From: Escherichia phage RCIP0319
DNA length: 64,000 nt
Direction: 5' to 3' (one strand)
Sequence record: PV464738.1
Shown here: piece after piece, positions 62,027-64,000 of the stretch
Layout of the letters: each line of letters starts with the position of its first letter
Numbering within the stretch: position 1 is the first letter of the stretch
The notes under the pieces: model-generated
The model's input: only the letters and a program-made list of their open reading frames with translations
What the model was told of the DNA's origin: nothing
The model's database searches: none
Translations under genes and position numbers: made by a program

Positions 62027-62653
62027 TTAGATGATCTGGAAGGTGTAGGACTTGTTGCCGAACTCGAAGTTCAAGCGTCCAGCTTCTTTAAGCTTCATGC
62101 GGAAGCGAATGTGCTTGCTATCCGGTAAGCCCAGCGCAGCGAACGCTACGCGGACTGATTTGAACTCGCCTACACCCTCGACCATAACGGCGTTGCGCGT
62201 GAGACGCTTTTGCGCCACTTCCTTGTTATCCCAACTTTTTGCGATGCCTTCGCTATTCGAACGGCGATGAGAAGGACTGGCAATTTTATCCGCGCCAACC
62301 GGAGTATCATTCAGGCCGCTCTTGACGAAGGCTTCATATTCTTCGTCGGTCATTGCGTCGAGTTCTTCCTGAGTCGGCTCGACCTTTTTAACGACCGCAC
62401 GCGCCTTGTGCGTTTTTACATCGCTGGACACTTCCTCACGCGGCTTCGCGTCTGGGATGGGCGATTCGTTGGACGGCTCATCGAGCGCGTTTAAGGACTC
62501 AATTAACGCGATTACGCGAGTCTCAGCGGTGCGACGGTCCGCAAACTTCTTAATCGGTTTTGAGCCGGAGTTGGCATTATAGAATACAACGAGGTCGGCG
62601 GTCTTAGTTGCGATAACGTCGCCGCTAGTAGAAAAACGATTCAAGCTAACCAT
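62027..62653 (-). CDS. Hypothetical protein
   Basis: 208 aa minus-strand ORF; codon usage looks more CG-rich than the structural genes. Confidence 0.45.
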   Translation of the reverse strand: MVSLNRFSTSGDVIATKTADLVVFYNANSGSKPIKKFADRRTAETRVIALIESLNALDEPSNESPIPDAKPREEVSSDVKTHKARAVVKKVEPTQEELDAMTDEEYEAFVKSGLNDTPVGADKIASPSHRRSNSEGIAKSWDNKEVAQKRLTRNAVMVEGVGEFKSVRVAFAALGLPDSKHIRFRMKLKEAGRLNFEFGNKSYTFQII

Positions 62654-62877
62654 AATAAACTCCTACTTTGGGAGCGGCGTTAACGACCTATTCGCTAACT
62701 CATCCCGTCCCGATATGAGTACATTATAATATAGTGTAGGAAAAAGTAAAGCACTTTTTCGATAAAAATGCGATAAATTATTTTATCTTTTTCTTTACTT
62801 CTTCGTACACTCGCGTATACTTGTTTATATCGAGACGGGCGATGGCCCTTTCTTCTACTATCATCGGGAGCTTTATT

Positions 62878-63189
62878 ATGACTACTTTAATCTCTTCTAT
62901 CCTTACTTACGACGAAGACCGCTTAACCGTTCGCTCTCTTATCGCCGCCGTTAACGCGGAGCTCGAAAATAGCATTATTAAAGCGCGCGCCGTCGCCTTC
63001 GTCGGCCTTTCCTTCGACGATATTAAGTATGCAGAGTATAGCGCCATTCGCGCCATTCGCGTCGTTACTACCGACGATAACGCCGTTGCCCTTATCGAGA
63101 CGGTTACGCCGCGCGGCGAAGCGTTAATCATCGTCGAGTATATCGACGTAGAAGGCGATAAAGCTTATAAATATTTTATCGCAGAATAA
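62878..63189 (+). CDS. Hypothetical protein
   Basis: 103 aa from an ATG with GGGAG RBS; the ORF-track entry starts earlier at a TTG. Confidence 0.4.
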   Translation: MTTLISSILTYDEDRLTVRSLIAAVNAELENSIIKARAVAFVGLSFDDIKYAEYSAIRAIRVVTTDDNAVALIETVTPRGEALIIVEYIDVEGDKAYKYFIAE

Positions 63190-63296
63190 CGAAAAAGCGC
63201 TTTACTTCTTCGTACACTAAGACTATGATGTTTTATATCGAGAGGGGATGAGGTAGCGAATAGGTCGCTACCCTCCCGACTAACTAGGAGAATATT

Positions 63297-63587
63297 ATGA
63301 TTACTTTATCCGCTATCCGCGCCGCTCGCGTCGGAACTTCCGAAAACTCTAACGTATTTGGCGAAACCTTAGAGAGCGTTTATCGCTCTAAAGTCGACGC
63401 GATTATCGAGTCTATTTATGAGCCGATCAACTTCCTCGACCTTTACAAATATCGCGACGAGGACATCGTATCCTACCGCGTAACGATTAACGGCTTCGTC
63501 TATACGATTACCGAAATCGGCGGCGAATATATCGCTGTACCGCAACTCGGCGGCGAAGTGACTTATTTTAAAATCGTCTCCTTATAA
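63297..63587 (+). CDS. Hypothetical protein
   Basis: 96 aa with TAGGAG RBS; followed by a GC hairpin and T-run. Confidence 0.4.
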   Translation: MITLSAIRAARVGTSENSNVFGETLESVYRSKVDAIIESIYEPINFLDLYKYRDEDIVSYRVTINGFVYTITEIGGEYIAVPQLGGEVTYFKIVSL

Positions 63588-63606
63588 TACCCTTCCGTTA
63601 CTAATA

Positions 63607-63630
63607 GGCCGCGCTTAGTCGCGGCTTTTC
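63607..63630 (+). terminator. Putative rho-independent terminator
   Basis: GCCGC-loop-GCGGC hairpin followed by TTTTCTTCG, just after the stop at 63587. Confidence 0.4.
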
Positions 63631-64000
63631 TTCGTCCCTATCCCGATGCGCGTCCTACGCGAAAACTCCTTTATCCTTCCCTTCGTCGTCGCATAATCTT
63701 CTTCTAGATGCGCCTTAGTTCGCATAACGGGTATTACGTTAAATGGAGAACATCGCGTAAATCCTTGTTTTATATAGACACCTATATCGGACCGTTAGGG
63801 AGGGTCGCGCAAGTCGTTGTTTTATAAAGGCGCAAAACTTTCCCTTCGTTCCGAACTAAAACGAGAAATATGCCGACCCTTCGCCCGAAAATAGTACGCA
63901 TGCGAAATTACATGCATCTAGAATAATCCCCACCGATATTATCCTACACGTAATCATTAGCTTTCGAATCATTATGATTCATATTATTATGCGTTGAATC

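What the first reader, a model, noticed from the sequence alone, without database searches (positions are those of the whole stretch)
62650..64000. Compositionally distinct right-end segment with repeated promoter-like boxes
Seen in sequence (by eye, no statistics computed): coding sequence here is noticeably richer in CG and TA dinucleotides and uses CGC/GCG/TTA/TAT codons more than the structural and replication genes. The same 18-mer TTTACTTCTTCGTACACT occurs at 62794 and 63201, each followed by TTGTTT(T)ATATCGAGA, with further TTGTTTTATA boxes at about 63765 and 63817; each precedes a short gene with a good RBS. Inference: an early or host-takeover module with its own promoter class, possibly acquired separately; the window may end before the true genome end.
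Basis: partly seen in the sequence, partly recalled or inferred. Interest (0 to 1): 0.5.

Follow-up and report, generated by a model that had tools for sequence, protein, structure and literature searches.

The report
Phage terminal-repeat early module lacking CA/TG
The right end of this window is the early-gene part of a coliphage's 3.7-kb terminal repeat: three near-identical promoters that closely resemble T7 A1 drive it, and its DNA has been almost purged of the dinucleotides CA and TG, a conserved and apparently selected feature with no known explanation.

Summary
The window is a Wifcevirus (E. coli myovirus). Positions 60765-64000 lie inside its ~3.7-kb direct terminal repeat (DTR).

Only four dinucleotides differ from the rest of the genome at 62500-63850: CA 0.34 and TG 0.32 (elsewhere ~1.18), CG 2.15 (1.10) and TA 1.34 (0.66). 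GC content is unchanged. The depletion affects all codon positions, codon junctions and non-coding DNA. The encoded proteins almost lack Met, His, Gln, Cys and Trp.

The same ~1.8-kb purge lies 0.2-0.3 kb inside the DTR right boundary in three genera (Wifcevirus, Kylevirus, Myosmarvirus), although gene content has diverged. Variants among seven Wifcevirus genomes that create CA/TG are under-represented. This argues for ongoing selection and against foreign origin.

The "boxes" are three sigma-70-type promoters: TTTACT, 16-17 bp, a TATAAT-like hexamer, an AT-rich upstream region, and the start sequence ATCGAGAGGG, identical to T7 A1. The two TTGTTTTATA boxes are not promoters of this class.

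Best reading: a host-RNA-polymerase immediate-early module on the DNA end that probably enters first. What selects against CA/TG is unknown. I found no description of this purge.

The parts
60765..64000 (.). The part of the direct terminal repeat (DTR) that lies in the window. The right boundary is about 80-160 bp past the window end.
   Evidence: Window 60765 aligns to base 1 of phage Mansfield, whose DTR 1-3673 is annotated from PhageTerm. Records that hold both copies give 3784 bp for WFC and 3603 bp for Kyle.
62500..63880 (.). Core of the CA/TG-purged zone, with rho(CA/TG) 0.20-0.50 in 200-bp windows. A weaker depletion (0.7-0.9) extends left to about 61600.
62708..62750 (-). Promoter P_L: TTTACT, 16 bp, TATAAT, then ATCGGGA. 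The putative start is the A at about 62714. It drives the 208-aa gene.
Evidence: (inverted repeats I1, I2, I4).
62751..62793 (.). AT-rich stretch shared by the divergent promoters P_L and P_R1 (candidate UP elements). It includes GCGATAAATT.
   Evidence: Sequence. AT-rich upstream blocks are conserved across genera.
62794..62835 (+). Promoter P_R1: TTTACT, 16 bp, TATACT, 7 bp, ATCGAGA. The putative start is at about 62829.
62878..63189 (+). Gene for a 103-aa acidic protein (net charge -7) with one Met and no His, Gln, Cys or Trp. Ribosome-binding site GGGAG.
   Evidence: No Pfam or PHROG match.
63201..63243 (+). Promoter P_R2: TTTACT, 17 bp, TATGAT, 7 bp, ATCGAGAGGG. The putative start is at about 63237.
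63241..63281 (+). 5' leader hairpin of the P_R2 transcript. A homologous hairpin lies in the P_L leader at about 62669-62711 on the minus strand.
   Evidence: Fold energies are -21.3 kcal/mol (z = -2.3) and -17.1 kcal/mol. The two stems differ by one compensatory pair and one G-C to G-U change.
63297..63587 (+). Gene for a 96-aa acidic protein (net charge -5) with one Met, one Gln and no His, Cys or Trp. Ribosome-binding site AGGAG. It is a paralogue of the 94-aa gene 005 that other Wifcevirus phages carry and this window lacks.
   Evidence: Only 5 hits among 1.8 billion representative proteins.
63606..63637 (+). Intrinsic terminator: an 8-bp GC-rich stem followed by a T tract. It ends the rightward unit.
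   Evidence: A terminator is annotated at the same place in Mansfield and WFH.
63753..63829 (+). Two copies of a 25-nt element, TCGCG(T/C)AA(A/G)TC(C/G)TTGTTTTATA(T/A)AG. They lie in non-coding DNA that is nearly invariant among seven Wifcevirus genomes.
   Evidence: (repeat D4).
60854..60869 (-). Third, inverted copy of the element core (CGCAAGTCTTTGTTTT), about 90 bp inside the DTR left boundary.
   Evidence: (inverted repeat I7). Invariant in the seven genomes.
62027..62653 (-). Gene for a 208-aa protein (phrog_4730, function unknown), transcribed from P_L. The CA/TG depletion fades along the gene.
61713..61976 (-). Gene for an 87-aa protein downstream of the 208-aa gene, in the weakly depleted stretch.
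   Evidence: 31% identical to Kyle gp2.
61102..61996 (+). Array of seven copies of (A)ATTTGCACTAT, all on the plus strand, at the inner edge of the zone. The motif occurs nowhere else in the window.
   Evidence: Mansfield, WFC and Bas99 have nine copies each and Kyle has two.
61125..61598 (+). Gene for a small-terminase-like protein (phrog_4783) in the left part of the DTR, which has normal composition.
   Evidence: (HHpred note in the Mansfield record).

Best explanation
Shown. Positions 62500-63880 are the right-hand part of the ~3.7-kb direct terminal repeat of a Wifcevirus. The segment holds a divergent set of three nearly identical sigma-70-type promoters. Each has an AT-rich upstream region, a GCTTTACT -35 element, a 16-17 bp spacer, a TATAAT-like -10 element and the initial transcribed sequence ATCGAGAGGG, which is that of T7 A1. 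The promoters drive a 208-aa conserved protein leftward and two small, acidic proteins without wider homologues rightward. The leaders form 5' hairpins, and an intrinsic terminator ends the rightward unit.

Also shown. The DNA of this module is purged of the CA/TG base-pair step, which is replaced one-for-one by CG and TA. The purge lies about 0.2 to 2 kb inside the DTR right boundary. It is conserved in three genera. Variation among seven genomes indicates that selection maintains it.

Inferred.
- This is the immediate-early module, read by host RNA polymerase.
- It sits on the genome end that is packaged last and therefore enters the cell first.
- That stretch must work as naked DNA, and as its transcripts, before any phage protection exists.
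- The purge is therefore avoidance, at the level of a dinucleotide, of some activity that depends on CA/TG and acts in that interval. The activity could be the phage's own attack on host DNA or a host defence. It has not been identified.
For: DTR location.

Composition.
- Only CA, TG, CG and TA differ from the rest of the genome, at equal GC content.
- z = -7.1 to -7.7 for 400-bp windows.
- All codon positions, codon junctions and non-coding DNA are depleted.
- The proteins have at most 1-2% Met+His+Gln+Cys+Trp, against about 15% in the neighbouring terS-like protein.
- Leucine never uses CTG or TTG: 0 of 14 codons, against 46% in the background.

Conservation and position.
- The same zone occurs in all Wifcevirus genomes examined and in Kyle, MTx and MyoSmar.
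- In four genomes of three genera it spans about -300 to -1900/-2100 bp from the DTR right boundary. Composition is normal outside the DTR.
- Its genes are barely or not alignable between genera.

Selection.
- The transition/transversion ratio is 1.24 in the zone, against 2.15 and 2.74 in the flanking parts of the DTR.
- Variants that create CA/TG are under-represented: transversions OR 0.17, p = 3e-5; transitions OR 0.53, p = 0.013.
- Variants that destroy CA/TG are over-represented: transitions OR 4.1, p = 2e-6.
- The same direction holds for synonymous plus non-coding sites. A control region shows no such bias.

Promoters.
- locate them; one search gives the cross-genus consensus.
- They align in register with T7 A1, and the first 10 transcribed bases are identical.
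- The related Pbunavirus 14-1 has 26 sigma-70-like promoters with mapped start sites. The four that were cloned drive a reporter in E. coli (PMC10914365).

Context. [quoted passage not shown]
Against: - Nothing here shows timing of expression, which end enters first, or any pause in DNA entry.
- The packaging direction is inferred only by analogy with lambda, from the position of terS and the one-orientation repeat array (my own knowledge).
- No activity specific for the CA/TG step is known.
- About 40 CA/TG remain per 1.2 kb, so avoidance is not absolute.
- Converting CA/TG to CG/TA creates more palindrome centres. TCGA, CGCG, TATA and TTAA are at expectation, so classical restriction-site avoidance is not the reason.
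- Other phages with early genes at a terminal repeat or leading end show no purge: T5 0.94, T7 about 1.0-1.2, SPO1 1.08.
- On the sense strand CA (0.28) is somewhat more depleted than TG (0.44), which hints at a component acting on RNA or on the non-template strand.
Confidence: 0.55

Rival explanations
1. DNA-mechanical or packaging signal. The CA/TG-free stretch is read as double-stranded DNA by the packaging or end-forming machinery. It could act as a run-up that prepares the terminase to cut at the DTR right boundary, or it could serve duplication of the repeat. On this view it has nothing to do with infection timing.
For: The zone keeps a constant position and length relative to the DTR right boundary in three genera, whatever the genes and their orientation. 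It is nearly strand-symmetric and covers coding and non-coding DNA. It is absent from relatives that lack such a zone or a comparable repeat: a Pbunavirus, Luteibacter phage Pluto and metagenomic contigs L023-26. Conserved boundary-associated motifs exist.
Against: No packaging motor or terminase is known to read dinucleotide-step composition. The total number of pyrimidine-purine steps is unchanged (derived), so gross flexibility should change little. The left 1-1.5 kb of the DTR is not purged. T5, T7 and SPO1 repeats lack the feature.
Confidence: 0.12
2. Selection on RNA. The early transcripts avoid CA and UG in order to escape endoribonucleases (MazF cleaves at ACA, for example) or to remove every internal NUG start codon.
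For: The zone largely coincides with the early transcription units. CA on the sense strand is more depleted than TG (0.28 against 0.44; Kyle gp6 has 0 CA against 20 expected).
Against: TG is also strongly depleted on the sense strand of every small gene (0.17-0.32 in the most purged). Non-coding DNA downstream of the terminator and upstream of the promoters is purged too. UA, a frequent RNase target, is doubled. ACA is no more depleted than other CA-containing trinucleotides.
Confidence: 0.12
3. Local mutational bias. A process confined to this part of the repeat converts CA/TG to CG or TA without selection. Candidates are transcription-associated damage, exposure as single strands during duplication of the repeat, or biased mismatch correction between the two copies.
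For: All the changes needed are transitions, and the purine/pyrimidine pattern is preserved (derived). The region is heavily transcribed and is duplicated in each packaging cycle (inference).
Against: Two different context-specific transitions would be needed: C to T before A, and A to G after C. Transitions are relatively fewer in the zone, not more frequent (1.24 against 2.15-2.74). Transversions that would create CA/TG are suppressed most strongly (OR 0.17), and transversions that destroy it are favoured. The left part of the same repeat is unaffected.
Confidence: 0.08
4. A by-product of DNA modification. The phage modifies a motif that contains CA/TG, which would explain its resistance to restriction. 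The region that host RNA polymerase must read from virion DNA avoids that motif. Alternatively, CG and TA are enriched to raise the density of modification.
For: Wifcevirus phages resist type I, II and III systems, with sites present, and no mechanism is known (PMC11990801).
Against: No modification genes are annotated in the curated Bas99 record. Depletion is similar in all CA/TG contexts, so no motif longer than the dinucleotide emerges. The fixed distance from the repeat boundary is not explained.
Confidence: 0.08
5. Horizontal acquisition from a donor of different composition.
For: The region is more divergent among relatives (about 92-94% identity) than the structural genes (97-98%).
Against: GC content and 12 of 16 dinucleotides match the rest of the genome. 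No cellular genome signature I know of combines rho(CG) above 2 with rho(CA/TG) near 0.3 (my own knowledge of published genome signatures). The feature is syntenic in three genera and is still under selection. There are no mobility genes or tRNA genes.
Confidence: 0.02

Closest known systems
Phage T7 early promoter A1 (with the A1-A3 leading region and gene 0.3, ocr)
   Same: A host sigma-70 promoter with an AT-rich upstream region. The -35 element is TTGACT in T7 and TTTACT here. The spacer is 17 bp against 16-17 bp. The -10 element is GATACT against TATACT, TATGAT or TATAAT. Seven bases then precede a transcript that starts ATCGAGAGGG in both. GCGAATAG recurs a little further downstream in both. 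In T7 the promoters sit on the first DNA to enter and drive a small acidic anti-restriction protein (my own knowledge, and the T7 record annotation).
   Different: The arrangement here is divergent and lies inside a 3.7-kb repeat, whereas T7 has a 160-bp repeat (my own knowledge). The -35 element has no TG. T7's first 12 kb is not depleted in CA/TG (0.96-1.20). The proteins are unrelated by sequence.
Phage T5 first-step-transfer (pre-early) region, which is its left terminal repeat
   Same: Early genes lie within a long terminal repeat and are read from host-type promoters. A non-coding, repeat-rich stretch lies at the inner end; the T5 record annotates it as an 'injection stop signal'. T5's first-entering DNA must be free of sites for restriction enzymes that the phage later neutralises (my own knowledge of Davison and Brunel 1979; not re-read here).
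   Different: The T5 repeat is 10.2 kb and its CA/TG value is 0.94. Only CG is raised there (1.31 against 0.79). Two-step DNA entry is not shown for Wifcevirus. There are no A1, A2 or dmp homologues.
SPO1 host-takeover module in its 13-kb terminal redundancy
   Same: A cluster of small early genes of mostly unknown function lies inside the terminal repeat. They are served by many similar strong promoters read by the host polymerase (my own knowledge).
   Different: The host is Gram-positive. There is no purge (CA/TG 1.08 both inside and outside the repeat).
Motif avoidance in the first-injected DNA of Autographiviridae (PMC12455610)
   Same: The principle that what the first-injected stretch contains decides whether a defence acts before countermeasures are made (title and abstract).
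   Different: That case concerns specific type I recognition sites. Here a whole dinucleotide step is excluded and no cognate enzyme is known.
Dinucleotide-level selection in viruses of vertebrates (CpG and UpA avoidance, ZAP)
   Same: Selection acts on a dinucleotide as such, across codon positions and non-coding sequence (abstracts listed; my own knowledge).
   Different: The direction is opposite: CG and TA are enriched here. The effect is local rather than genome-wide. The setting is a bacteriophage, and the sensor is unknown.

Membership tests
Sigma-70-dependent promoter, T7 A1-like strong early type | A -35 hexamer and a -10 hexamer close to consensus, 16-18 bp apart, with A at position 2 and T at position 6 of the -10 hexamer | tested here: met
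   All three sites score 9-10 of 12: TTTACT-16-TATAAT, TTTACT-16-TATACT and TTTACT-17-TATGAT.
Sigma-70-dependent promoter, T7 A1-like strong early type | An AT-rich upstream (UP-like) region | tested here: met
   AT-rich blocks of the type TTCGAAAATATTTTA lie upstream of the -35 element in all eight promoters from three genera.
Sigma-70-dependent promoter, T7 A1-like strong early type | Initial transcribed sequence and spacing as in T7 A1 | tested here: met
   For P_R2, ATCGAGAGGG matches 10 of 10 bases and lies 7 bp after the -10 element, as in T7 A1. The in-register alignment has invariant ATCG..A.G.
Sigma-70-dependent promoter, T7 A1-like strong early type | Transcription actually starts there, by host RNA polymerase | not testable with these tools
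   There is only indirect support. Sigma-70-like promoters of the related Pbunavirus 14-1 have mapped start sites, and the four that were tested are active in E. coli (PMC10914365).
Pre-early or host-takeover module in a terminal repeat (T5, SPO1 type) | Located inside a long direct terminal repeat | tested here: met
Pre-early or host-takeover module in a terminal repeat (T5, SPO1 type) | A cluster of small genes of unknown function behind several similar host-type promoters | tested here: met
Pre-early or host-takeover module in a terminal repeat (T5, SPO1 type) | Expressed first; host shut-off or anti-defence activity; for the T5 type, two-step DNA transfer | not testable with these tools
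   No expression or DNA-entry data for Wifcevirus were found.
Horizontally acquired island | A shift in base composition or a donor-like genome signature, patchy distribution, mobility genes | tested here: not met
   GC content is unchanged and 12 of 16 dinucleotides are unchanged. The feature is syntenic in three genera. No mobility genes are present.
Restriction-site (palindrome) avoidance | Short palindromes fall below the Markov expectation specifically in this segment | tested here: not met
   TCGA 11 observed/11.7 expected, CGCG 19/18.4, TATA 15/13.9, TTAA 10/11.6, GCGC 13/11.0. GATC is low across the whole genome (103/248), not only here. Only AATT is low locally, 1 against 9.3, and pooled across three genera the deficit is modest.
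DNA-mimic anti-restriction proteins (Ocr or ArdA type) | A small, strongly acidic protein encoded on the leading DNA | tested here: met
   Net charges are -5 to -18 for proteins of 94-114 aa in the three genera.
DNA-mimic anti-restriction proteins (Ocr or ArdA type) | Sequence or fold similarity to a known mimic | tested here: inconclusive
   No Pfam or PHROG match. The AlphaFold2 model of the 96-aa protein has mean pLDDT 52.7, too low for a fold search.

The most novel reading that the evidence does not exclude
The ~1.8-kb CA/TG-free stretch, fixed 0.2-0.3 kb from the right genome end in Wifcevirus, Kylevirus and Myosmarvirus, marks the DNA that is alone in the cell during a first step of entry. 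It is purged because an activity present at that moment acts on the CA/TG step. The most likely candidate is a frequent-cutting function of the phage that destroys host DNA; a host defence is the alternative. This would be discrimination between self and non-self at the level of a single dinucleotide, written into a phage genome, and no such system has been described. The small acidic proteins without wider homologues would then be the pre-early effectors behind the unexplained resistance of these phages to restriction.
Probability: 0.25. Interest if true: 0.85.

Novelty: new variant of a known kind. Interest (0 to 1): 0.68.

Why it matters
Wifcevirus phages are candidates for therapy and biocontrol. 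They are reported to replicate very fast and to resist nearly all tested restriction systems, with no known mechanism (PMC11990801). This work locates their probable immediate-early module and defines its promoters, which are close relatives of T7 A1.

It also shows a conserved, selected sequence rule, 'no CA/TG for about 2 kb next to the genome end', that even dictates which amino acids the early proteins may contain. The rule can be tested directly by synonymous recoding.

The rule points to an unknown activity in the first minutes of infection, or to an unknown requirement of end formation. It also offers a simple compositional signature for finding the first-acting DNA of other uncharacterised phages.

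Tried and rejected
- Foreign origin: rejected.
- Classical restriction-site or palindrome avoidance: rejected. Palindromes are at expectation and the CG/TA gain creates palindrome centres.
- GATC avoidance as the cause: rejected. GATC is low across the whole genome.
- Codon or tRNA-level explanation: rejected. Codon junctions and non-coding DNA are also depleted.
- A motif longer than the dinucleotide: none found. All eight CA/TG-containing trinucleotide pairs are depleted; CAG/CTG is the lowest in Wifcevirus (0.05-0.07) and ATG/CAT the highest.
- A general property of terminal-repeat or leading-end early regions: not so in T5, T7 or SPO1.
- Presence in more distant relatives: absent from Pbunavirus antinowhere (whole genome), from 40 kb of Luteibacter phage Pluto, and from metagenomic contigs L023-26 and L029.
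- Known RNA families in 60700-64000: none at E-value up to 1.
- Protein function: no Pfam match for any DTR protein, and only function-unknown PHROGs for two. The PDB sequence and profile searches, and the Pfam scan of each of the six family members, were uninformative for the 208-aa family.
- Homologue searches returned only close Wifcevirus copies, so the alignments stayed shallow.
- Both AlphaFold2 models were too poor to use (pLDDT 52.7 and 39.3). No fold search was run.
- Literature: nothing found on CA/TG depletion in phage. The supplement of PMC10914365 is not held.
- The TTGTTTTATA boxes as promoters of the same class: rejected. They have no TTTACT -35 element, no downstream gene, and fail the composite pattern.
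Full report
**What the window is**

The window matches Wifcevirus phages (E. coli and Shigella myoviruses such as ECML-117, WFH, WFC, Mansfield and Bas98-101). Identity is 97-98% over the structural genes and about 90-95% over 61600-64000. The record is permuted: window position 1 lies just upstream of terL.

- In phage Mansfield a direct terminal repeat (DTR) of 3673 bp is annotated from PhageTerm. Window 60765 aligns to its base 1 and window 64000 to its base 3592.
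- Records that carry both copies give 3784 bp for WFC and 3603 bp for Pantoea phage Kyle. Serratia phage MTx is annotated with 3566 bp. Korf et al. reported a repeat of about 3.7 kb for WFC and WFH (PMC6563267).
- The finding therefore lies inside the DTR. The window stops about 80-160 bp before the DTR right boundary.

**Check of the observation**

The 18-mer is at 62794 and 63201 exactly as stated.

At 62500-63850 four dinucleotides depart from the rest of the window, and the other twelve and the GC content are the same:

| Dinucleotide | Zone 62500-63850 | Rest of window |
|---|---|---|
| CA | 0.34 | 1.18 |
| TG | 0.32 | 1.17 |
| CG | 2.15 | 1.10 |
| TA | 1.34 | 0.66 |

- From these numbers, about 105 CA/TG per kb are lost and about 51 CG plus 51 TA are gained. 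Pyrimidine-purine steps stay at about 250 per kb (my arithmetic).
- 400-bp windows in the zone lie 7.1-7.7 standard deviations below 150 background windows. No other part of the 64 kb falls below 0.77.
- The depletion is graded: 0.7-0.9 from about 61600, then 0.2-0.5 from 62500 to 63880.
- It affects codon positions 1-2 and 2-3, the junction between codons, and non-coding DNA.
- It reaches the protein level. The 103-aa and 96-aa products have a single Met, no His, Cys or Trp, and at most one Gln. None of 14 Leu codons is CTG or TTG, against 46% in the background.

**The promoters**

The composite pattern TTTACT-N16/17-TATNNT-N5-9-ATCGRGA occurs three times in the window, against none expected. 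The sites are 62750-62708 (-), 62794-62835 (+) and 63201-63243 (+). All three pass a sigma-70 consensus scan.

- The first two are divergent and share an AT-rich stretch.
- Each is followed by a gene with a good ribosome-binding site: the 208-aa gene (minus strand), the 103-aa gene and the 96-aa gene.
- Promoters of the same build occur three times in every Wifcevirus examined, three times in Kyle, once in MTx and once in a Pseudomonas Pbunavirus.
- They align in register with T7 A1. T7 A1 reads TTGACT-17-GATACT-7-ATCGAGAGGGACACGGCGAATAG. P_R2 reads TTTACT-17-TATGAT-7-ATCGAGAGGGGATGAGGTAGCGAATAG.
- The P_R2 and P_L leaders form a 5' hairpin, with one compensatory pair between the two. A terminator lies at 63606-63627. 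No Rfam family matches.
- In the related Pbunavirus 14-1, 26 sigma-70-like promoters have mapped start sites, and the four that were cloned drive a reporter in E. coli (PMC10914365). This supports host-polymerase use but does not prove it for these sites.

**The TTGTTTTATA boxes**

They are the cores of a 25-nt direct repeat (63753-63777 and 63805-63829). The repeat lies in non-coding DNA that is almost invariant among seven Wifcevirus genomes, more conserved than the neighbouring genes.

- They lack the TTTACT element, and no credible gene follows them.
- A third copy of the core lies inverted about 90 bp inside the left DTR boundary and is also invariant.
- I read them as a boundary-associated DNA element (packaging, end formation or replication), with low confidence, and not as promoters of this class.

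**Conservation of the purge**

The same purge is present in every Wifcevirus genome examined. It is also present in Pantoea phage Kyle (Kylevirus) and in Serratia phages MTx and MyoSmar (Myosmarvirus).

- Measured from each phage's own DTR right boundary, rho(CA/TG) is normal at +100 to +900 bp and about 0.8-1.1 at -100 bp. It is below 0.6 from about -300 to -1900/-2100 bp, and normal again further left. This holds in all four genomes tested.
- Gene content and orientation differ: all three zone genes are leftward in MTx, whereas Wifcevirus and Kyle have divergent sets.
- The small proteins are at best 31% identical between genera. They share only a character: 94-114 aa, net charge -5 to -18, and almost no Met, His, Gln, Cys or Trp.
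- The purge is absent from Pbunavirus antinowhere (whole genome, minimum 0.61), from 40 kb of Luteibacter phage Pluto (minimum 0.55) and from metagenomic relatives L023-26 and L029.
- It is also absent from the T5 repeat (0.94, though CG is 1.31 there against 0.79 outside), from the first 12 kb of T7 and from the SPO1 terminal redundancy.

**Selection or mutation**

I aligned seven Wifcevirus genomes and classified the variants.

- The transition/transversion ratio is 1.24 in the zone, against 2.15 and 2.74 in the two flanking parts of the DTR.
- Per opportunity, minor alleles that create CA/TG are rare: transitions 0.049 against 0.089 for neutral ones, and transversions 0.007 against 0.039.
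- Minor alleles that destroy CA/TG are frequent: 0.289 for transitions and 0.086 for transversions.
- The left part of the DTR, used as a control, shows no such pattern.
- Fisher tests give OR 0.17 (p = 3e-5) for creating transversions, OR 0.53 (p = 0.013) for creating transitions and OR 4.1 (p = 2e-6) for destroying transitions. Restricting to synonymous and non-coding sites keeps the direction: OR 0.24 (p = 0.011), OR 0.61 (p = 0.09) and OR 2.6 (p = 0.014).
- Alleles were polarised by majority rule and only seven genomes were used, so this is supportive rather than conclusive. A deficit of transitions, and the involvement of transversions, are not what a deaminase-like local mutation process would give.

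**What it most likely is**

Shown: a DTR-borne module of three T7-A1-like host-type promoters, small acidic proteins without wider homologues and a conserved 208-aa protein of unknown function. Its DNA is kept free of the CA/TG step by a force that has persisted across three genera and is tied to the distance from the DTR right boundary.

Inferred:
- It is the immediate-early module.
- The terS gene and an array of 7-9 TTTGCACTA repeats, all in one orientation, lie in the left part of the DTR. By analogy with lambda cosB (my own knowledge), the left end would be packaged first. The right end would then be packaged last and injected first, which would make the purged 2 kb the first DNA in the cell.
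- The purge would then be avoidance of something that acts on CA/TG before phage protection is in place. I cannot name the agent.
- Classical restriction avoidance is excluded, because palindromes are at expectation and the CG/TA gain makes more palindrome centres.
- Wifcevirus resistance to all tested restriction systems except EcoP1I has no known mechanism (PMC11990801). Acidic early proteins on the leading DNA are reasonable candidates for that mechanism, but nothing here tests this.

**Rivals**

A packaging or end-formation signal fits the anchoring to the boundary equally well. Selection on RNA is hinted at by a mild excess of CA depletion over TG depletion on the sense strand (0.28 against 0.44), but it does not explain the untranscribed DNA. 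Local mutation bias, a side effect of DNA modification and foreign origin are each less likely, for the reasons given in their own entries.

**Novelty**

A terminal-repeat early module with host promoters is a known kind (T5, SPO1, T7). The promoter subclass and its identity with the T7 A1 start region are new details. The local, conserved, selected exclusion of one base-pair step, strong enough to shape protein composition, is something I could not find described. My literature search covers only the held library.

**What failed**

Protein function could not be assigned. Both structure predictions were unusable. No tool allowed a collection-wide scan for the signature.

Noticed in passing
window 61102-61996 (+ strand): There are seven copies of (A)ATTTGCACTAT, all on the plus strand, and the motif occurs nowhere else in 64 kb. 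Two of them overlap the terS start codon. Mansfield, WFC and Bas99 have nine copies of TTTGCACTA each, all between 338 and 1535 bp from the DTR left end, and Kyle has two. This may be a binding array for the small terminase or for the 208-aa protein, sitting at the inner edge of the purged zone.
   Followed up: partly
window 6629-6888 and 60694-60886: Ten near-perfect copies of TACGGATGATACG (1.0 expected) fall in two clusters. Six lie in the AT-rich intergenic region at 6600-6900. Four flank the DTR left boundary at 60765. This looks like an operator motif for an unidentified DNA-binding protein.
   Followed up: partly
window 44284-44465: A 99-nt tandem repeat (1.8 copies, 77% matches) lies in the 1-kb stretch with the most deviant composition outside the DTR (GC-dinucleotide rho 1.98, AT skew -0.39). 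It probably lies inside a leftward gene.
   Followed up: partly
whole window: GATC (103 observed, 248 expected) and CTAG (21 observed, 120 expected) are under-represented across the whole genome, independently of the purged zone.
   Followed up: partly
window about 62629-62670: Compared with Mansfield, WFH, WFC, Bas99 and a metagenomic relative, this phage lacks about 320-370 bp between the 208-aa gene and the promoters. The missing piece carries a 94-aa acidic gene (Mansfield 005), a paralogue of the 96-aa gene. ECML-117 lacks it too.
   Followed up: partly
L010 (phage T5 1-30000): T5's terminal repeat, its first-step-transfer DNA, has rho(CG) 1.31 against 0.79 in the next 20 kb, while CA/TG and TA are unchanged. 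This is a different and milder compositional mark on first-entering DNA.
   Followed up: no
L005 2024-2065 (Pbunavirus antinowhere, record about 63.8 kb): One promoter of the same build (GCTTTACT-N17-TATAGT-N6-ATCGAAAC) lies upstream of a small leftward gene in a Pseudomonas phage that has no purge. The promoter class is therefore older than the purge.
   Followed up: partly
window 60001-61000: This is the kilobase with the lowest GC content (0.377) and the highest GC skew (+0.25) in the window. It spans the junction between unique DNA and the DTR left boundary. The ORFs listed there look non-genic.
   Followed up: no
L006 1027-1089 and 1631-1745 (Serratia phage MTx): Two pairs of direct repeats (22 nt, identical; 20 nt, 85% identical) lie at the inner edge of the MTx purged zone. 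The 20-nt pair is inside a 400-bp non-coding gap. The position corresponds to that of the TTTGCACTA array in Wifcevirus.
   Followed up: no
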